Shown: positions 4,877 through 57,385 of the stretch, one piece after another
Layout: every line of letters begins with the position of its first letter
Numbering within the stretch: position 1 is the first letter of the stretch
Assembly: GCA_028710985.1 (NCBI GenBank)
Contig: JAQTTB010000001.1
Coordinates: forward strand, 19,280 to 83,279
Reading direction: 5' to 3'
DNA from: Patescibacteria group bacterium
GTDB lineage: Bacteria; Patescibacteriota; Patescibacteriia; JAHJFT01
DNA length: 64,000 bases
Made by a program: the position numbers and the translations under genes
The notes under the pieces: generated by a model
The model's database searches: none
Seen by the model: only the letters and a program-made list of their open reading frames with translations
Told to the model about the DNA's origin: nothing

Positions 4877-4899
4877 GAGAGGGGTTGATATGTTAAAAT

Positions 4900-4972
4900 A
4901 GCTTGTAGGAAGTAGCTTGTAGCTTGTAGGACGCGACCTATTAAGATCCTACAAGCTACAAGCTACAAGCTA
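4900..4972. repeat. large inverted repeat built from heptamer triplets (AGCTTGTAG x3 / CTACAAGCT x3) ending 3 nt before the ATG of the 4975 gene
   Basis: Left arm agcttgtaggaagtagcttgtagcttgtagga and right arm tcctacaagctacaagctacaagct flank a 15-nt loop cgcgacctattaaga. A possible TTGTAG-N16-TATTAA promoter is embedded in it. Confidence 0.6.
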
Positions 4973-9439: not shown

Positions 9440-9590
9440 CCTTGTTTGGTTTAGTCAAAAGTTAAAAGTCAAAAGTCCAAAGTCAAGTCTAAAATTTTTT
9501 AGTCCAATCTCTCCAGCTGAATGTATCTATAACTTTTTGACTTTTAACTCAACTTTTAACTTTAGACTTTAGACTTTTAACTACAAAACA
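9440..9590. repeat. long imperfect inverted repeat made of AAAGTC/TAAAAGT-type short repeats, located between two co-directional GT genes
   Basis: Left arm agtcaaaagttaaaagtcaaaagtccaaagtcaagtctaaa. Right arm ctttttgacttttaactcaacttttaactttagactttagacttttaac. Confidence 0.6.
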
Positions 9591-9593
9591 AAC

Positions 9594-10712
9594 CTACCAA
9601 AATATAATTAGTCGTGCAATTAAAAAATAAAGATTAAACAACGGATTAGCGATTTTAAGCGCCCAATTATTAATTTCCTGATACTCAATCTTCCCTGTGA
9701 AATGACGAAGCACTTCTTTATCCCCGATACTTCTCGCGCGCGCGATTCTCGCGTGCTTGACGAAGAGATACGGCCAGTGCCACGGCGCGATCATCCAAAG
9801 ATATGCCTTAAGCTTCTCGCGCCACCAGCCGGACTTGATGGAAAAAATAAACTGCCCGAGCTCCATCGCGAGAAAGGCCGGCAGAAACACGAGCTGGGTC
9901 AGAAATTTATAATCGCAAAAATATAAAATAAAACGATTTCGCTCCATCCAGTAATATTTTGAAATACTCCGGCTGAATTCATATTCGTGATACACAACCG
10001 ACCGCGGCGCGAGCACGTTCACGAACCCGCCAAGCCGGAGCCGCCAGCCCAGATCCAGGTCTTCGTGATACGCAAAAAGTTTTTCATCAAAAAGCCCGGC
10101 ATCGCGCAAGGCGCCGATCTTGTATAAAACCCCGGCTCCGGAGCCGTAAGCAATTTCCGGAAGCCCGATAAAATCGCGTTCGCTCCGCGCCGCGCGCGAA
10201 CCGCCGCAAAATCCGAATCCCAGATAATGAATCATGTTGCCCGACGAATTAATGAGTCCGCGCTCGGGCCAGAGCGCGAGCAGAGACTGCACCGAACCGA
10301 TTTTCTGATTTGATTCCGCCGCATCGACGGCATGGCGCAAAAAATCCGGCTCAACCCGCGTATCGTAATTTATTAAATAAACATAATCAAAACCCTGCAC
10401 CTGCCTGCCGGTAGGCAGGGCCATTGCATACTCAATCGCGCGGTTGTTTCCGCCGGCAAAGCCGAGATTCGTGTTCATGGGCATAAAGTGAATCTTCGGC
10501 AGCCCCTGGGGCGGCGACTGCATTATCTCCAGAATGCGCTCGCGCGACCCGTCGGTTGACGCATTGTCAACAATAACAAGCTCAACCGCCTCCCGCGGAT
10601 AATCCAAGAGCGCGAGCGATTCAATCCAGGCATCTAAAAAACGCCGCGCCTTCCAGAGCACGGCGATAATTGCCACTCGTTTTACATCCTGATTATTCAT
10701 GCTTTTTTGCAT
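9594..10712 (-). CDS. glycosyltransferase family 2 with C-terminal membrane extension
   Basis: VAIIAVLWKARRFLDAWIESLALLDYPREAVELVIVDNASTDGS is a GT2 signature with a DxD region. The start is chosen at MQKSMNN (10712), giving a 20-nt overlap with the upstream DUF2304-like gene. The ORF track's 10838 start would give a 146-nt overlap. Confidence 0.7.
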   Translation of the reverse strand: MQKSMNNQDVKRVAIIAVLWKARRFLDAWIESLALLDYPREAVELVIVDNASTDGSRERILEIMQSPPQGLPKIHFMPMNTNLGFAGGNNRAIEYAMALPTGRQVQGFDYVYLINYDTRVEPDFLRHAVDAAESNQKIGSVQSLLALWPERGLINSSGNMIHYLGFGFCGGSRAARSERDFIGLPEIAYGSGAGVLYKIGALRDAGLFDEKLFAYHEDLDLGWRLRLGGFVNVLAPRSVVYHEYEFSRSISKYYWMERNRFILYFCDYKFLTQLVFLPAFLAMELGQFIFSIKSGWWREKLKAYLWMIAPWHWPYLFVKHARIARARSIGDKEVLRHFTGKIEYQEINNWALKIANPLFNLYFLIARLIIFW

Positions 10713-11037
10713 CTTCACTCTTCTCTCCCACCGCGATTTCGCGGGTAATTTTTGTGATATTTTTTTCGATTGACTGAATTTTAATGAATATTCTGAACGC
10801 GAGATAAAATAACAGCACGATTGAAAGATATGTCGCAAGATCCGCGCCGCGCTCGACTCCGAACCAGGCCGCCGCCACGTCGGTTTTCTTTGGGATTACC
10901 GCCGCCGCGCTGACCGCAATCCAAAACAAAAGCCAAACCGCGAGCCATCCGGCGGTAATGTCTTTTGATCGGTACTTGCGGAACGCTCTCCAGGCCGCAA
11001 TCGCCGCAAATAATATAATAACCGCTTGAATTATCAC
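10693..11037 (-). CDS. small membrane protein, DUF2304-like (commonly paired with GT2 in CPR-type glycosylation modules)
   Basis: 114 aa with three hydrophobic helices and a charged C-terminal tail. Located between two GT2 genes. Confidence 0.55.
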   Translation of the reverse strand: MIIQAVIILFAAIAAWRAFRKYRSKDITAGWLAVWLLFWIAVSAAAVIPKKTDVAAAWFGVERGADLATYLSIVLLFYLAFRIFIKIQSIEKNITKITREIAVGEKSEDAKKHE

Positions 11038-11729: not shown

Positions 11730-11962
11730 TCGTCATTCCCGCGAAGGCGGGAATCCAGAAACAGTATACCTTGCGGATTCGATTTATAAACTGTCACACA
11801 AATCACTCCAAAGCGGATTGCAGTCTTCAATGAATTTAATCTTTTAGACCCTTTCCACTTATTGGAGGATGCAAATATAGAACTGCCGATAATCGGACAT
11901 AGCATAAATAAGTAGCCCCGAGATTAATTGGTTGTGGATTCCCGCCTTCGCGGGAATGACAG
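11730..11962. mobile_element. MITE-like 233-bp element with 26-bp terminal inverted repeats of the REP-like palindrome CGTCATTCCCGCGAAGGCGGGAATCC
   Basis: cgtcattcccgcgaaggcgggaatcc at 11730..11755 and its reverse complement ggattcccgccttcgcgggaatgac at 11936..11960. The interior is non-coding and AT-rich. The only ORF across it, 11702..11905, is the typical LDSRLRGND translation artefact of this palindrome. Confidence 0.6.
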
Positions 11963-12978: not shown

Positions 12979-13096
12979 AATTTTTGTATTTATTTTATCA
13001 AGTTTATATGTATATTTTAGACGAAATCACGCTTTTTGGCAAGGAGCGAGAATAATAATAAAACGAGCCGATTAAAGCCCGCTTTGTTCCATTGTT

Positions 13097-13552
13097 CTAT
13101 TGTTTTATTGTTCTCTTAAAAATGAATATTTTCTGAAAAAAGAAATTAATAAAATAGAGAATGGCATACACCACAAATTTTGCCGCCACGTCCCAGATTC
13201 CGAGGTAATGCACCGTGACAAACAGCAGGCCTTCGCCGATCAAAAAAACCACAAGCGCGTTAATCCAATAAACCGCATACTGCCTGACCACGCGCTTATC
13301 CGTATCGCCGAAAGTATAAGTCTTGTTAAACCAATAACCCACGATCGCGCCGAGCGTCATGCTCACAAAATTCGCCAAAAGATAATGTATGCCGAAAATT
13401 TTTGTGAGCAATAGATACGTCCCAAAATCAACGCCGGTCGCCCCGGTCCCCACGATCGTGAACCGCCACAGCTGTTTGATGGTTTGAAAAAGATTTGATT
13501 TTTGAGATATATTTTTGAGATTTGAGATTTGAGATTTGAGATTATCTTCCAT
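13097..13552 (-). CDS. GtrA family membrane protein (putative polyprenyl-phosphate-sugar flippase component)
   Basis: FTIVGTGATGVDFGTYLLLTKIFGIHYLLANFVSMTLGAIVGYWFNKTYTF is a GtrA-like four-helix core. The N-terminal 20 aa are encoded by a 7-bp x4 repeat. The true start may be an internal TTG. Confidence 0.65.
   Translation of the reverse strand: MEDNLKSQISNLKNISQKSNLFQTIKQLWRFTIVGTGATGVDFGTYLLLTKIFGIHYLLANFVSMTLGAIVGYWFNKTYTFGDTDKRVVRQYAVYWINALVVFLIGEGLLFVTVHYLGIWDVAAKFVVYAILYFINFFFQKIFIFKRTIKQ
13515..13542. repeat. perfect tandem repeat TTGAGAT x4 (7-bp unit) at the 5' end of the GtrA CDS, inside the GtrA/WbaP divergent promoter region
   Basis: ttgagat ttgagat ttgagat ttgagat, preceded by a degenerate tttgaga copy at 13501. 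Read directly from the sequence. Confidence 0.9.
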
Positions 13553-41396: not shown

Positions 41397-41789
41397 ATGG
41401 GCGAAACTATCAAATCATTTGAGGACTTGCTCGTTTGGCAAGAGTCGCACAAGCTCATGATTGACGCTTATGGGTTCGCGGACCGCTATTTGCCGCCGGA
41501 AGAAAAATACAATCGCATTTCTCAAATAAAACGCTGTTCAAGCTCAATCCCTGCCAATATCGCCGAAGGTTATGGTCGATTTCATTTCTTGGAAAATATC
41601 CAATATTGCCGGCAAGCCCGAGGTTCACTTGATGAACTTAAAAACCACATCATCGCCGCCCGAGACCTAAAGCAGGCTCCTCCGGAAGAATGTGCCAAAT
41701 TTATCCAAAAATGCAATTATGTACGGGCTATCCTAAATAACTACATTAACAAAACTCATGATCTCTATATTGAAAATAAGCAAAAATAG
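41397..41789 (+). CDS. four-helix-bundle protein (23S rRNA intervening-sequence protein family)
   Basis: LLVWQESHKLMIDAYGF...IPANIAEGYGRF is a conserved signature of this family. 130 aa. Confidence 0.7.
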   Translation: MGETIKSFEDLLVWQESHKLMIDAYGFADRYLPPEEKYNRISQIKRCSSSIPANIAEGYGRFHFLENIQYCRQARGSLDELKNHIIAARDLKQAPPEECAKFIQKCNYVRAILNNYINKTHDLYIENKQK

Positions 41790-43023: not shown

Positions 43024-43265
43024 ATCAATAAAATCCCTCTCTGCCTCTCCCTTCCTGCCTGCCGGCAGGCAGGTTGCATACTTTTGGTTACAAAAGTATG
43101 TCCTGCTGAAAGCAAACAAGAGTGGTGCTAGAAAAGATAATTATTGCCCAGACAGGTGGCAGGCAAGAACTTAAAAATCCCAATATTAAAACAACTTGTA
43201 CGATAATATATAATAGGATTCCCCCGGTACATTGAACCTGGATTCCCGCCTTCGCGGGAATGACA
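43024..43265. repeat. copy A of a ~215-240-bp intergenic repeat, containing the perfect palindrome CCTGCCTGCCGGCAGGCAGG, the hairpin CATACTTTTGgttaCAAAAGTATG, and a terminal REP-like palindrome (43240..43265)
   Basis: Near-identical to 56987..57199. The palindrome is at 43054..43073 and the hairpin at 43077..43100. Confidence 0.8.
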
Positions 43266-43369
43266 AAAGTAAGGCAGGAATGACAAATGGCGCTAAGATT
43301 TTTATAGCAAGATTCCCGCCGGAGCCTGCCCTCATGCAAATGGGGGGGGTGGCTAAAAATATCGTCAAC

Positions 43370-43412
43370 CAAAAAACCACTCCGACGTTACGTCGAAGTG
43401 GTTTTGAATTTT
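43370..43412 (-). terminator. rho-independent terminator for the Wzy_C/TPR gene (minus strand)
   Basis: Minus-strand transcript reads AAACCACTTCGACGtaaCGTCGGAGTGGTTTTTTGG. Confidence 0.6.
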
Positions 43413-43416
43413 AATC

Positions 43417-51557: not shown

Positions 51558-51782
51558 AAATAATTTATATCCTTTTGAATTTAATTCTTATCACGCAAGC
51601 GGCCATTGGCCCCGACCTTTTAGCCTGCGCGTTAATTAACTCTGGTACAAGTTCCGACGCCCCAACATAAAGTTGGCGGTCGGAATCCCGACTTCCGCCT
51701 GCGGCGGAATGTCGGGACATCAGCCCATACCCCGGAAACGGCTTCCATAAAAACCGCCTTCGGGGTATTTCCGATGATTAAT
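51558..51782 (-). promoter_or_regulatory. 225-nt structured 5' leader/intergenic region upstream of the surface-protein gene
   Basis: Contains CCCGAC(A)TTCCGCC-gcag-GGCGGAAGTCGGG and a CCCCGAAGGCGG/CCGTTTCCGGGG stem. Confidence 0.45.
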
Positions 51783-53702: not shown

Positions 53703-53999
53703 ATGTCTTCATCCATTCGCTTATCCGTATCCGAAGCCGCCCGGCTTTTTGGCATTAGTGAAAAAACCCTGCGCCGCGCCATCATTAATAAGGAAATCAA
53801 CTATATCGTGGTTGCCGGCCGGTACAAGCTAAATTTTGAAAGCCTGGTCAAGTGGTCCCAGCAAAAAACCACGGTGCGCCGCAAATCCGAAAAATACGGC
53901 ATCGACCAATTTGTGGATAAATGGCGCCTCTCCGCCACCCTCTACTCCCCCAACCCACCCGCCACGGAACAAGAGAACAATTCAACAATACAACAATAG
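53703..53999 (+). CDS. small helix-turn-helix DNA-binding protein (excisionase-family HTH)
   Basis: SVSEAARLFGISEKTLRRAIINKEINYIVVAGRYKLNFESLVKW matches the XIS/MerR-like HTH pattern. 98 aa. Confidence 0.6.
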   Translation: MSSSIRLSVSEAARLFGISEKTLRRAIINKEINYIVVAGRYKLNFESLVKWSQQKTTVRRKSEKYGIDQFVDKWRLSATLYSPNPPATEQENNSTIQQ

Positions 54000-54061
54000 A
54001 ACGACCTATAAAAAAACAAGCGTTTTACCTATGCTTGTTTTTTTGTTGTATTGTTGAATTG
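53978..54061. terminator. nested bidirectional terminator: a 19-bp perfect outer inverted repeat (CAATTCAACAATACAACAA / TTGTTGTATTGTTGAATTG) enclosing an inner AACAAGC-loop-GCTTGTT hairpin flanked by an A-run and a T-run
   Basis: Outer arms at 53978..53996 and 54043..54061. Inner hairpin at 54015..54039. The left arm encodes the last residues of the HTH protein. Confidence 0.65.
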
Positions 54062-54074
54062 TTGCGTTGTCCGC

Positions 54075-55229: not shown

Positions 55230-55353
55230 ACCATGATTATTTGTAATGCGATTAATTTGTTATGTAATCTCATTAAATCCTCGTCTTGCCCGCCGAAATC
55301 CCGACCGAACGAAGTGAGCGTCGGGACGAAGGAGGGTCATTGCTATTCTCATA
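55214..55353. repeat. 17-bp direct repeat TCATTGCTATTCTCATA (55214..55230 and 55337..55353) flanking a 106-bp segment with a GC-rich hairpin TCCCGAC-N14-GTCGGGA
   Basis: The first copy contains the start codon of GT4 54075..55229. The second copy recreates the first five codons (MRIAM) in front of a 29-codon upstream ORF. Confidence 0.7.
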
Positions 55354-56718: not shown

Positions 56719-56768
56719 GGGCAGGATAAGCAAGGTCCCCCCCTACCTTGCCCCTGCCCGCCTTTTTT
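56719..56768 (+). terminator. first stem-loop plus T-run after the lipoprotein gene
   Basis: GGGCAGG ...(26 nt)... CCTGCCC gccTTTTTT. Confidence 0.4.
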
Positions 56769-56845: not shown

Positions 56846-56986
56846 TGCATCTTAGTCAGAACATGGGGTTCGGGGGCGCAACTGAGCATGGCGCTAGGAA
56901 GCAGTGAATTGCCTATTTGCCGAGAGCGAACCCGCCTGCCAACGCCTGGCGTAGGCCTGGCGGGCAGGTTTGCGACCCCGAAACTT

Positions 56987-57199
56987 CCTGCCTGCCGGCA
57001 GGCAGGTTGCATACTTTTGGTTACAAAAGTATGTCCCGCTGAAAGCGAACAAGAGTGATGCTAGAAAACAATAATCAATACCCAGACAAGCGGCAGGCTG
57101 TGGCTAGAAAATCCCAATATTAAAACAACTTGCACGAAAATATTTAATAGGATTCCCCCGGTACATTGAACCTGGATCCCCGCCTTCGCGGGGATGACG
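56987..57199. repeat. copy B of the ~215-bp intergenic repeat (palindrome at 56987..57006, hairpin at 57010..57033, REP-like palindrome at 57174..57199)
   Basis: Same orientation as copy A at 43024..43265, with an almost base-for-base match: cctgcctgccggcaggcaggttgcatacttttggttacaaaagtatgtcc(c/t)gctgaaagc... then ...taataggattcccccggtacattgaacctgga. Confidence 0.8.
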
Positions 57200-57247
57200 A
57201 AGAGAGCACTTTGCCACTTACCGTCATTCCCGCGAAAGCGGGAATCC
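57174..57247. repeat. inverted pair of REP-like palindromes (GGATCCCCGCCTTCGCGGGGATGACG, 24-nt spacer, CGTCATTCCCGCGAAAGCGGGAATCC) forming a ~28-bp-stem hairpin
   Basis: Units at 57174..57199 and 57222..57247. The second is followed by agaaaca, as at 11756. Confidence 0.8.
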
Positions 57248-57261
57248 AGAAACAAAGCCCC

Positions 57262-57385
57262 TCCAAAATCCCTCTCTGACACGTCGCTCGCGAGCGACGT
57301 GTCTCTGTCTCCCCCTTCCTGCCTGCCGGCAGGCAGGTCAGCCACCCCGAAACTTTTTGGTTACTTTTTGGTTACAAAAAGTAAC
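57262..57385. repeat. partial third copy of the intergenic repeat (palindrome CCTGCCTGCCGGCAGGCAGG at 57318..57337 and hairpin GTTACTTTTTGgttaCAAAAAGTAAC at 57360..57385)
   Basis: aaaatccctctctg...ctcccccttcctgcctgccggcaggcagg matches 43030..43073. Confidence 0.7.

What the first reader, a model, noticed from the sequence alone, without database searches (positions are those of the whole stretch)
43024..43416. Composite ~215-bp intergenic repeat with a perfect 20-bp palindrome and hairpin, present twice in the same orientation at convergent gene junctions
Sequence 43024..43265 is nearly identical to 56987..57199, and a partial third copy lies at 57262..57385. Each copy starts with AAAATCCCTCTCTG...CTCCC(T)TCCTGCCTGCCGGCAGGCAGG, a perfect 20-bp palindrome. 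This is followed by the hairpin CATACTTTTG-GTTA-CAAAAGTATG, a conserved about 110-nt stretch (GCTGAAAGCNAACAAGAGTG...AATCCCAATATTAAAACAACTTG), and the REP-like unit. Both copies lie downstream of plus-strand genes and upstream of the ends of minus-strand genes. This is too long and too conserved for a simple terminator. It could be a small non-coding RNA gene, a transcription-terminator/insulator cassette, or a non-autonomous mobile element.
Basis: seen in the sequence. Interest (0 to 1): 0.5.

Follow-up and report, generated by a model that had tools for sequence, protein, structure and literature searches.

The report
Mosaic of nuclease-linked hairpin repeats
The repeat is real, but it is a patchwork of small DNA hairpins that has built up between genes in one uncultured bacterium; one hairpin is a known nuclease target, and the 20-bp palindrome turns out to be a tiny insertion unit found across many phyla beside small GIY-YIG nuclease genes.

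Summary
Observation confirmed with corrections. 43051-43267 and 56984-57201 are 89% identical (195/218, one 1-nt gap). A partial third copy lies at 57265-57385. The source is a Patescibacteria (CPR) MAG.

The unit is a mosaic, not one element.
- Related genomes carry only intrinsic terminators at the copy A gene junction, and mostly so at the copy B junction. The block is therefore a lineage-specific accretion.
- The 'REP-like' unit is an exact NTS/dRS3 Ssn-related motif, the ssDNA hairpin cut by single-domain GIY-YIG Ssn nucleases (PMC11893778).
- The 20-bp palindrome (PAL1) is a discrete insertion unit:
  - it adds 7 residues in frame to a window GT2 gene;
  - it is nested in itself elsewhere;
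  - it occurs in at least 120 genome stretches of many phyla and in 35 viral-contig stretches;
  - in several loci it lies 17-35 nt upstream of ~80-aa GIY-YIG genes that abut tRNA genes.
- In copy B, PAL1 and the next hairpin form the 3' end of a ~170-nt structured element with covarying helices. It is absent from Rfam and found on five other contigs.

Best reading: a NIME/BIME-like mosaic of nuclease-associated hairpins, duplicated by recombination. It is probably not a dedicated terminator cassette or a classical MITE. Transcription and nuclease activity are untested.

The parts
43030..43053 (+). C/T-rich 'head' (AAAATCCCTCTCTGCCTCTCCCTT), shared with partial copy C but not with copy B
43054..43073 (.). 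PAL1, perfect 20-bp palindrome CCTGCCTGCCGGCAGGCAGG (copy A)
   Evidence: Same 20-mer in at least 120 genome stretches of many phyla and 35 viral-contig stretches.
43077..43100 (+). Hairpin H2 (CATACTTTTG-GTTA-CAAAAGTATG), copy A
43101..43237 (+). Spacer module (~137 nt). Found only in the two window copies. Holds a promoter-like TTAAAA-17-TATAAT at 43186-43214 in copy A only. A 1-nt indel versus copy B argues against coding.
43238..43265 (-). NTS/dRS3-type Ssn-related motif (TGTCATTCCCGCGAAGGCGGGAATCCAG on the minus strand)
   Evidence: SRM regex from PMC11893778
43266..43376 (.). Non-repeated tail with half-units (GGCAGGAATGAC; GATTCCCGCCGGAGCCTGCC)
43377..43407 (.). Ordinary intrinsic terminator hairpin with T-runs on both strands, next to the Wzy_C/TPR gene end
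   Evidence: Relatives have only such a terminator here.
56865..56986 (+). P1 domain of the structured element. Long helix 5' GGGGTTCGGGGGCGCAA / 3' TTGCGACCCCGAAACTT, with conserved CTGAGC and GAGAGCGAA.
56931..56968 (.). 38-nt PAL1-like hairpin (CCCGCCTGCC...GGCGGGCAGG). It sits inside P1 right after GAGAGCGAA and is absent from the homologue in L129.
56987..57006 (.). PAL1 (copy B)
57010..57033 (+). Hairpin H2 (copy B)
57034..57171 (+). Spacer module (copy B)
57172..57199 (-). NTS-type motif, variant with compensatory stem change (ATCCCCGC..GCGGGGAT)
57222..57249 (+). Exact NTS (CGTCATTCCCGCGAAAGCGGGAATCCAG), inverted relative to the previous unit
57265..57317 (+). Head of partial copy C. 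It is interrupted by a 24-bp perfect palindrome PAL2 (57279-57302, ACACGTCGCTCGCGAGCGACGTGT) flanked by direct CTCTG.
57318..57337 (.). PAL1 (copy C)
57338..57385 (+). P1-3'-like segment (TCAGCCACCCCGAAACTT) followed by H2 variant GTTACTTTTTG-GTTA-CAAAAAGTAAC. Here PAL1 lies before, not after, the CCCCGAAACTT segment.
10400..10419 (.). PAL1 with one mismatch inside the GT2 glycosyltransferase gene (9594..10838, minus strand). It encodes a 7-residue in-frame insertion, LPTGRQV.
11731..11961 (.). Pair of inverted NTS units (11731-11758 +, 11934-11961 -) flanking 175 bp: a NIME-like unit

Best explanation
The feature is one of two diverged copies of a lineage-specific mosaic block. It has accreted at two convergent-gene junctions of a Patescibacteria genome. 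The block is built from small, independently distributed hairpin modules.

Two modules can be identified.
- The 'REP-like' unit is an NTS/dRS3-type Ssn-related motif. This is the single-strand DNA hairpin that single-domain GIY-YIG Ssn nucleases bind and cut.
- The 20-bp palindrome PAL1 is a second, previously undescribed hairpin class.
  - It inserts as a discrete ~20-bp unit into intergenic DNA, coding genes, tRNA-gene copies and itself.
  - It is physically linked, in several phyla and one viral contig, to ~80-aa single-domain GIY-YIG genes that abut tRNA genes.

Proposed mechanism (inferred, not shown):
- Hairpins extruded on single-stranded DNA are recognised by a cognate small GIY-YIG nuclease encoded elsewhere in the genome.
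- Nicking and repair spread orphan hairpins into permissive sites.
- Recombination between identical hairpins then shuffles and duplicates the DNA between them. Copy A equals the head seen in copy C joined, at PAL1, to the body of copy B.

The hairpins may secondarily stabilise or end transcripts, but that is not why the block exists. In copy B, PAL1 and the next hairpin sit at the 3' end of a ~170-nt structured element (P1-PAL1-H2). This may be a small RNA gene that PAL1 invaded.
For: Shown
1. The repeat and its modular structure. Modules occur in different orders: PAL1 lies after CCCCGAAACTT in copy B and before it in copy C.
2. Empty sites.
   - The GT4/Wzy junction is 29-184 bp of plain terminator(s) in three relatives, against 395 bp here.
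   - At the DUF11 junction, L128, L133, L134 and L135 have little beyond a terminator, L130 and L132 carry unrelated word-repeat hairpins, and L129 has a PAL1-free homologue of the structured element.
3. NTS identity. There are two exact matches to CGTCATTCCCGCGMAVGCGGGAATCYRG and five matches to the published SRM pattern, against 0.22 expected (pattern and biochemistry from PMC11893778). A compensatory stem change separates copies A and B.
4. PAL1 is a discrete insertion.
   - The window GT2 protein has a unique 7-residue insertion LPTGRQV, absent from 39 homologues including one 71% identical. It coincides with PAL1 plus 1 nt.
   - Net 20-bp insertions occur in tRNA-gene copies.
   - PAL1 is nested in PAL1 in L018, L042 and L127.
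   - 25 of 125 PAL1 sites lie in open frames of at least 200 codons, mostly read as LPAGRQ.
5. Spread. A control palindrome gave 0 viral hits.
6. Link to GIY-YIG.
   - 11 GIY-YIG hits (E<0.05) were found in about 0.95 Mb.
   - Four lie 17-35 nt from PAL1. L077 lies 35 nt from a 2-mismatch PAL1. Three more lie within about 150 nt.
   - The four full-length ORFs tested pass the Pfam PF01541 cut-off.
   - Seven abut the 5' end of a same-strand tRNA.
   - The same layout occurs in viral contig L170.
Against: - No GIY-YIG gene was found in the 64-kb window. The rest of the 744-kb genome could not be searched, so a cognate nuclease in this organism is not shown.
- PAL1 does not match the published SRM pattern. 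Whether the PAL1-linked GIY-YIG proteins belong to the Ssn clade (cd10448) was not testable.
- No mechanism by which a GIY-YIG nuclease would copy a 20-bp hairpin is known.
- No gene family is enriched next to most PAL1 sites (best 8 of 120 loci). Most copies are therefore orphans.
- The spacer module (~135 nt) has no identified origin.
- The P1-PAL1-H2 covariation fits an RNA gene, so part of the block may be functional RNA rather than selfish DNA.
- PAL1 and NTS do not generally co-occur elsewhere: only 8 SRM hits in 0.85 Mb of PAL1 loci.
Confidence: 0.6

Rival explanations
1. Small RNA gene. P1-PAL1-H2 (56865-57033) is a genuine structured non-coding RNA of CPR bacteria. Copy A and copy C are truncated paralogues or pseudogenes of its 3' part. 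This is partly compatible with the best explanation.
For: - Six loci (window, L123, L124, L126, L127, L129) share the architecture.
- The inner P1 helix has six different, fully complementary sequences. H2 stems covary. 16 G:T wobbles lie on the plus strand only.
- In four of the six (window, L124, L127, L129) the element starts a few tens of nt after an upstream terminator.
- The folds are stable (-57 to -86 kcal/mol).
- PAL1 is known to land in other structured-RNA genes, namely tRNA copies.
Against: - Only six sequences, five of them selected by a pattern that forced PAL1 plus H2.
- No Rfam family matches.
- No convincing promoter.
- Presence is sporadic at the orthologous site: 2 of 8 related genomes.
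- Neighbours are unrelated.
- Covarying stems are also expected for DNA hairpins.
Confidence: 0.25
2. Terminator/insulator cassette. The hairpins exist to stop or insulate convergent transcription and were duplicated for that function.
For: - Both copies sit between convergent genes.
- PAL1, H2 and NTS are stable hairpins on both strands.
- PAL1 plus H2 directly follow the GT4 stop codon.
Against: - No T-run follows PAL1 or H2. Canonical terminators are present separately in both regions.
- At the copy A junction relatives use only a 29-184-bp terminator region, and at the copy B junction four of seven relatives have little beyond a terminator.
- PAL1 also occurs inside coding genes and tRNA copies, where termination makes no sense.
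Confidence: 0.1
3. Classical non-autonomous transposon (MITE). The ~217-bp block is a single element mobilised in trans by a transposase.
For: - Two copies at 89% identity in unrelated intergenic sites that are empty in relatives.
- Short-read Logan contigs of the source sample end about 59 bp after the GT4 stop, inside the 53-nt stretch identical in copies A and B, as expected at a repeat.
Against: - The ends (CTTCCTGCC... / ...GGGAATGAC) are not inverted repeats, and there is no target-site duplication.
- The left boundary falls inside a larger structured element in copy B.
- The whole block was not found in at least 120 PAL1 genome loci, the metagenome hits or viral contigs.
- No transposase was seen among the genes flanking the two copies. 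The rest of the window was not screened.
Confidence: 0.05

Closest known systems
NTS / dRS3 hairpin repeats and Ssn single-domain GIY-YIG ssDNA nucleases (Nat Commun 2025;16:2388, PMC11893778)
   Same: The window's 'REP-like' units match the 28-nt NTS consensus exactly (2 copies) or the SRM pattern (5 copies). They are intergenic and clustered, and one pair is inverted around a short insert. PAL1 shares the logic: a short hairpin close to a small GIY-YIG gene, spread over many phyla.
   Different: No ssn gene lies in the window. PAL1 does not fit the SRM pattern (no GTCWY flank). It is a perfect, orientation-free palindrome and usually sits on one side of the GIY-YIG gene. The gene abuts a tRNA, with a duplicated tRNA 5' segment. 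PAL1 is also often inside coding genes, whereas NTS is reported as rarely intragenic (2%).
Neisseria intergenic mosaic elements (NIMEs) and E. coli BIMEs (established knowledge; dRS3 definition also quoted in PMC11893778)
   Same: Intergenic mosaics of short repeat units separated or flanked by 20-bp dRS3-type inverted repeats. Modules are shuffled between copies. Arrays lie downstream of genes.
   Different: The host is a CPR bacterium with a ~0.74-Mb genome. The mosaic mixes two unrelated hairpin classes plus a structured RNA-like element. Only two full copies were seen.
REP/REPIN elements with RAYT transposases (PMC3116915; Ton-Hoang 2012, cited in PMC11893778)
   Same: Many orphan hairpins presumably spread by one domesticated single-strand-specific enzyme encoded at one or a few loci flanked by the hairpin.
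   Different: The partner here would be a GIY-YIG nuclease, not an HUH Y1 transposase. REPs are species-specific, whereas PAL1 is identical across phyla.
Rickettsia palindromic elements and cyanobacterial small dispersed repeats (Elhai et al. 2008, Genome Res; from memory, cited in PMC3116915)
   Same: Very small palindromic units that insert in frame into protein-coding genes and into each other without obvious target duplication.
   Different: RPEs are 100-150 bp and confined to Rickettsia. The cyanobacterial units are confined to cyanobacteria, and no enzyme partner is known for them. PAL1 is 20 bp, cross-phylum, and linked to a GIY-YIG gene.
Free-standing GIY-YIG homing endonucleases in tRNA regions, such as phage T4 SegB (from memory)
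   Same: A GIY-YIG gene lodged in or next to tRNA genes, with a mobile-element flavour.
   Different: SegB-type enzymes are ~200-aa multi-domain proteins that cut double-stranded DNA. They have no associated palindrome and no duplicated tRNA 5' segment.

Membership tests
NTS / Ssn-related motif (SRM) | Sequence matches NTS CGTCATTCCCGCGMAVGCGGGAATCYRG or the SRM pattern HGTCWYN(0-2)YYVSBRHN(0-5)WNVSBRGN(0-2)RNCYNB | tested here: met
   two exact NTS (11731-11758, 57222-57249) and three more SRM matches (11934-11961, 43238-43265, 57172-57199). 0.22 expected in random sequence.
NTS / Ssn-related motif (SRM) | A cognate single-domain GIY-YIG (ssn, cd10448) gene in the genome, typically flanked by the motif | tested here: inconclusive
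   No GIY-YIG hit in the 64-kb window. The 175 bp between the inverted NTS pair gave no Pfam hit. The other ~680 kb of the genome could not be searched.
NTS / Ssn-related motif (SRM) | Cut as single-stranded DNA by the Ssn nuclease | not testable with these tools
   Biochemical assay needed.
PAL1 as an Ssn-type hairpin | Matches the published SRM pattern | tested here: not met
   PAL1 and its flanks lack the HGTCWY...RNCYNB frame. The motif is absent from the main text of PMC11893778.
PAL1 as an Ssn-type hairpin | Non-random proximity to single-domain GIY-YIG genes | tested here: met
   of 11 GIY-YIG hits in ~0.95 Mb, four are 17-35 nt from PAL1, one is 35 nt from a 2-mismatch PAL1, and three are within ~150 nt. 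One viral contig has the same layout.
PAL1 as an Ssn-type hairpin | The partner protein belongs to the Ssn clade (cd10448) | not testable with these tools
   Only Pfam PF01541 (GIY-YIG) could be assigned. NCBIfam gave nothing. CDD is not available.
NIME (Neisseria intergenic mosaic element) | Repeat units of about 50-150 bp flanked on both sides by dRS3 inverted repeats | tested here: inconclusive
   Met for 11731-11961. The 217-bp unit has an NTS at one end and PAL1 at the other.
MITE | Terminal inverted repeats and target-site duplication bounding the unit | tested here: not met
   The ends of the shared 217 bp are not inverted repeats, and no duplication flanks them.
Intrinsic terminator | G+C-rich hairpin followed directly by a T-run | tested here: not met
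   PAL1 and H2 are not followed by T-runs. The scan places terminators elsewhere in the same regions.
Any Rfam family | Covariance-model match at or near the gathering score | tested here: not met
   No gathering-level hit in the window. Only weak, inconsistent hits at E up to 10. Nothing at the homologous elements in L123-L126.
REP/RAYT | A Y1 (HUH) RAYT transposase flanked by the repeat | not tested
   Only genes next to the repeats were scanned against Pfam. No RAYT was seen among them.

The most novel reading that the evidence does not exclude
PAL1 marks a previously undescribed family of minimal mobile cassettes.
- An ~80-aa single-domain GIY-YIG nuclease gene lodges immediately upstream of a tRNA gene.
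- A partial copy of that tRNA, split by the 20-bp palindrome, lies upstream of it.
- The cassette travels between phyla, possibly on phages.
- It seeds exact 20-bp palindromic insertions into intergenic DNA, structured-RNA genes and, in frame, protein-coding genes.

The window's composite repeat would then be debris and recombination products of this system together with the NTS/Ssn system.
Probability: 0.4. Interest if true: 0.8.

Novelty: new variant of a known kind. Interest (0 to 1): 0.6.

Why it matters
The composite repeat itself is ordinary: a NIME/BIME-like mosaic in a tiny CPR genome. Two things that came out of it matter more.

1. It shows that NTS-type Ssn motifs, characterised in Neisseria only in 2025, occur with exact sequence identity in Patescibacteria.
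2. The 20-bp palindrome is a second hairpin class tied to small GIY-YIG genes, with an unusual tRNA-abutting layout.
   - It is identical across many phyla and in viral contigs.
   - It can insert in frame into proteins.

If the GIY-YIG partner cuts PAL1 single-stranded DNA, this would give a new sequence specificity for ssDNA-cutting enzymes. It would also give a testable model for how very short palindromes spread. In addition, it would explain many spurious 'LPAGRQ' or 'PACRQAG' peptides and assembly breaks in metagenome-assembled genomes.

Tried and rejected
- **Rfam.** At gathering and permissive thresholds, on the window and on relatives: nothing consistent. tRNA/tmRNA scan of the window: none.
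- **Coding potential of the spacer.** 94-aa minus-strand ORFs overlap both copies, but a 1-nt indel between the copies breaks the frame. Rejected.
- **Decayed ssnA between the inverted NTS pair at 11757-11935.** The peptide fragments look suggestive by eye, but there was no Pfam hit at E up to 10 and no HMM or tblastn hit. Unsupported.
- **Gene-family enrichment near PAL1 by all-against-all BLAST of ORFs.** No large cluster. The GIY-YIG link only appeared after a targeted search.
- **Regex search for more P1-type elements.** It failed even on the known members, so it was abandoned.
- **PDB alignment of the GT2 protein.** Did not cover the insertion.
- **GatB (L104) as a second clean in-frame insertion.** The site is a variable loop, so the result is inconclusive.
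- **SRP RNA, 6S RNA, hammerhead, group II intron domain V and integron attC** were considered for P1-PAL1-H2 from memory of their consensus features. They were rejected because the conserved motifs are not shared by all six members and Rfam found none.
- **Sequencing-adapter or assembly artefact for PAL1.** Rejected because it occurs in isolate genomes and in a curated complete genome, and in frame in a gene recovered in independent assemblies.
- **Searches for the whole unit in viral contigs:** none found.

Full report

Yes, with corrections.
- A local alignment gives 43051-43267 against 56984-57201: 195 of 218 positions identical (89.4%) with a single 1-nt gap.
- The palindrome CCTGCCTGCCGGCAGGCAGG (PAL1) is perfect at 43054, 56987 and 57318. 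It occurs once more with one mismatch at 10400. None is expected by chance.
- The hairpin CATACTTTTG-GTTA-CAAAAGTATG (H2) is at 43077-43100 and 57010-57033. A variant with two compensatory stem changes is at 57360-57385.
- Both full copies lie between convergent genes.
- The head AAAATCCCTCTCTG is in copy A and the partial copy C only, not in copy B.
- 43268-43416 is not repeated. It ends in an ordinary terminator hairpin.

**2. Source and context**

- The neighbouring DUF11 protein is identical to a protein of a 'Patescibacteria group bacterium' MAG, on a 744,538-bp contig.
- The window is gene-dense, with only twelve gaps above 150 bp.
- Short-read Logan contigs of the source sample end about 59 bp after the GT4 stop. 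That point lies inside the 53-nt stretch that is identical in copies A and B, as expected at a repeat.

**3. The block is a lineage-specific accretion**

- Gene order around both copies is conserved in related genomes.
- Copy A site: the GT4/Wzy junction is 51, 184 and 29 bp in L136, L137 and L138. It consists only of intrinsic terminators, against 395 bp in the window.
- Copy B site: among seven relatives, L128, L133, L134 and L135 have little beyond a terminator. L130 and L132 carry unrelated word-repeat hairpins. L129 has a homologue of the structured element described in section 6, but without PAL1.
- The block is therefore not a conserved regulatory part of these operons.

**4. The 'REP-like' module is a known element**

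- A literature search led to PMC11893778. It defines the Neisseria Transformation Sequence (NTS) as CGTCATTCCCGCGMAVGCGGGAATCYRG, which contains dRS3 (ATTCCC-N8-GGGAAT).
- The paper shows that the 94-aa single-domain GIY-YIG nuclease SsnA cuts this motif as single-stranded DNA. It also describes related motifs (SRM) across phyla, typically flanking the ssn gene.
- The window has two exact NTS copies and five SRM matches, against 0.22 expected.
- The copy A and copy B units differ by a compensatory stem change (ATTCCCGC/GCGGGAAT versus ATCCCCGC/GCGGGGAT).
- The pair at 11731-11961 is inverted around 175 bp, like a NIME unit. The idea that those 175 bp are a decayed ssn gene found no support.

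**5. PAL1 is an independent, widely dispersed insertion unit**

*Spread*
- They come from Patescibacteria, Omnitrophota, Bacteroidota (isolates included), Planctomycetota, Thermodesulfobacteriota, Bdellovibrionota, Chloroflexota and others.
- About one match is expected by chance.
- Flanks are unrelated, and none of these loci carries the rest of the 217-bp unit.

*Evidence that it is inserted*
- The window's GT2 protein has a 7-residue insertion, LPTGRQV, that is absent from all 39 homologues aligned. One of those homologues is 71% identical. The insertion corresponds to PAL1 plus one base.
- In L037 and L030 a partial tRNA copy differs from the intact tRNA downstream by a net 20-bp PAL1 insertion.
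- PAL1 sits inside PAL1 in L018, L042 and L127.
- 25 of 125 sites lie in open frames of at least 200 codons, mostly read as LPAGRQ.
- Within the window, PAL1 lies after CCCCGAAACTT in copy B but before it in copy C.
- Copy C's head also carries another perfect palindrome (PAL2, 24 bp) between direct CTCTG repeats that copy A lacks.

**6. PAL1 is linked to small GIY-YIG genes**

- An in-frame GIY-YIG domain was noticed 32 nt after PAL1 in an hsdS-like ORF (L060). This prompted a targeted search.
- tblastn and a four-sequence HMM found 11 GIY-YIG hits (E<0.05) in about 0.95 Mb of PAL1 loci.
  - Those in L037, L060, L106 and L118 are 17-35 nt from PAL1.
  - L077 is 35 nt from a 2-mismatch PAL1.
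  - L085, L010 and L039 are within about 150 nt.
- The four full-length ORFs tested pass the Pfam GIY-YIG cut-off (E from 5e-17 to 8e-14).
- In seven loci the ORF abuts the 5' end of a same-strand tRNA gene. These are L037 Lys, L106 Gly, L118 Leu, L077 Met, L039 Val, L074 Gln and L085.
- In L037, L106, L118 and L077, a partial copy of that tRNA split by PAL1 lies upstream of the ORF.
- PAL1 also occurs in 35 stretches of viral contigs. One of them, L170, has the same layout. A control palindrome (PAL2 core) gave none.
- The window itself has no GIY-YIG gene, so its PAL1 copies are orphans.
- PAL1 does not fit the published SRM pattern and is not mentioned in the main text of that paper.

**7. 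The structured element in copy B**

- A metagenome scan for PAL1 plus H2 found five contigs. Like copy B, all five carry an upstream domain:
  - 5' GGGGT..GGGG plus 5-8 variable bases;
  - a conserved CTGAGC;
  - a variable core;
  - a conserved GNGARUUU;
  - the complementary variable bases and CCCC.AAACUU;
  - then PAL1 and H2.
- With L129 this makes six members. Their inner helix has six different sequences, all paired. H2 stems covary. 16 G:T wobbles fall on the plus strand only.
- Neighbours are unrelated.
- No Rfam family matches.
- At the orthologous site the element is present in only 2 of 8 genomes.
- It may be a small RNA gene that PAL1 invaded, as it does tRNA copies, or a structured DNA element. 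The data cannot decide.
- Copy A lacks this domain, so it cannot be a complete copy of such a gene.

**8. Synthesis**

- Copy A equals the head seen in copy C joined, at PAL1, to the PAL1-H2-spacer-NTS body of copy B. This is the pattern expected from recombination between identical hairpins.
- The ~135-nt spacer is unique to this genome. It is non-coding, because a 1-nt indel separates the copies. It carries a promoter-like site in copy A only.
- Neither PAL1 nor H2 has a T-run. Canonical terminators are present separately.

The best-supported reading is a NIME/BIME-like mosaic of two classes of nuclease-associated hairpins, accreted and duplicated in this lineage.
- Shown: the modular anatomy, the empty sites, the NTS identity, the PAL1 insertion behaviour and the PAL1/GIY-YIG/tRNA linkage.
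- Inferred: that a GIY-YIG nuclease spreads PAL1, that recombination produced copy A, and any effect on transcripts.

**9. Novelty and score**

- The composite repeat is a new instance of a known kind of intergenic mosaic.
- PAL1 and its GIY-YIG/tRNA cassette look like an undescribed variant of the Ssn/NTS theme.
- Interest is 0.6, mostly for that second point.

Noticed in passing
window 10400-10419 (gene 9594..10838, minus strand): A PAL1 copy with one mismatch lies inside a GT2 glycosyltransferase gene. It encodes a 7-residue insertion (LPTGRQV) absent from 39 homologues.
   Followed up: yes
L037 2100-2480; L106 3680-4061; L118 5791-6185; L077 2686-3050; L170 490-860: Recurrent cassette: a partial tRNA copy split by PAL1, then an ~80-aa single-domain GIY-YIG ORF, then the intact tRNA starting 0-9 nt after the ORF. 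Seen in WWE3, Bacteroidota, Bdellovibrionales, a 'Gammaproteobacteria' MAG and a viral contig. The L106 ORF is frameshifted.
   Followed up: partly
L060 3861-4163: PAL1 followed by a GIY-YIG domain, fused in frame in the middle of a type I restriction HsdS-like ORF with duplicated flanking segments (Thermodesulfobacteriota MAG).
   Followed up: partly
L140 8616; L163 2284: In two viral contigs PAL1 sits inside a tRNA-like sequence, between the anticodon arm (..GCTCATAACCACGAGG) and the T arm (TCGCCGGTTCGAATCC). It was not checked whether an intact copy lies nearby.
   Followed up: no
L043 2000; L047 3381; L071 5886: PAL1 lies at a similar 'G-LPAGRQ-G/V' position in what look like related membrane-protein coding sequences of WWE3 and Daviesbacteria. 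This hints at site preference or shared ancestry of the insertion.
   Followed up: no
window 11731-11961: Two inverted NTS units flank 175 bp (NIME-like unit). A decayed ssn gene was suspected, but no profile or BLAST support was found.
   Followed up: partly
window 4899-4972; 9442-9600; 13086-13117; 53969-54070: Long imperfect inverted repeats built from short tandem 'words' (TAGCTTGTAG, AAAGTCAAAAGT, CAATAGAACAAT). Similar word-repeat arms flank PAL1 in many other genomes (for example L050, L058, L101) and fill the orthologous intergenic regions of L130 and L132.
   Followed up: no
window 56730-56751; also L130, L132, L133, L135 just after the homologous gene: A hairpin with a C-rich loop (GCAAGGTCCCCCCCTACCTTGC; in relatives ..GGTACCCCCCAACC..) is conserved about 30 nt downstream of the 300-400-aa repeat protein gene across relatives. 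It may be a 3' UTR element.
   Followed up: no
window 51690-51735 and 55290-55340: Further hairpins of a related style (GGAATCCCGAC...GTCGGGACATC; AATCCCGACC...GTCGGGACGAAGG). They do not fit the SRM pattern because the flank is GTCCC rather than GTCWY.
   Followed up: no
window 16000-41000: A 25-kb block of minus-strand genes has a much lower G+C (0.32-0.42, against 0.44-0.61 elsewhere). The two genes checked at its right-hand end are an NAD-dependent epimerase/dehydratase and a DUF218 protein. The block may have been acquired horizontally.
   Followed up: no
window 41397-41789: A 130-aa 23S_rRNA_IVP (four-helix-bundle) gene sits between the epimerase and GT4 genes. It is present at the same place in L137 but absent in L136, so it is a variable small gene.
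   Followed up: no
window 53703-53999: A 98-aa ORF of unchecked identity lies in a 528-bp gap and ends inside a word-repeat hairpin. In relative L128 a small HTH_17 gene lies in the corresponding neighbourhood beside the GT4 gene.
   Followed up: no
L101 5339, 5792, 6254: Three NTS-like units (CGTCATTCCCGCGWAAGCGGGAACCTAT) about 450 bp apart in a Shapirobacteria MAG. NTS-type repeats therefore occur in other CPR lineages as well.
   Followed up: no
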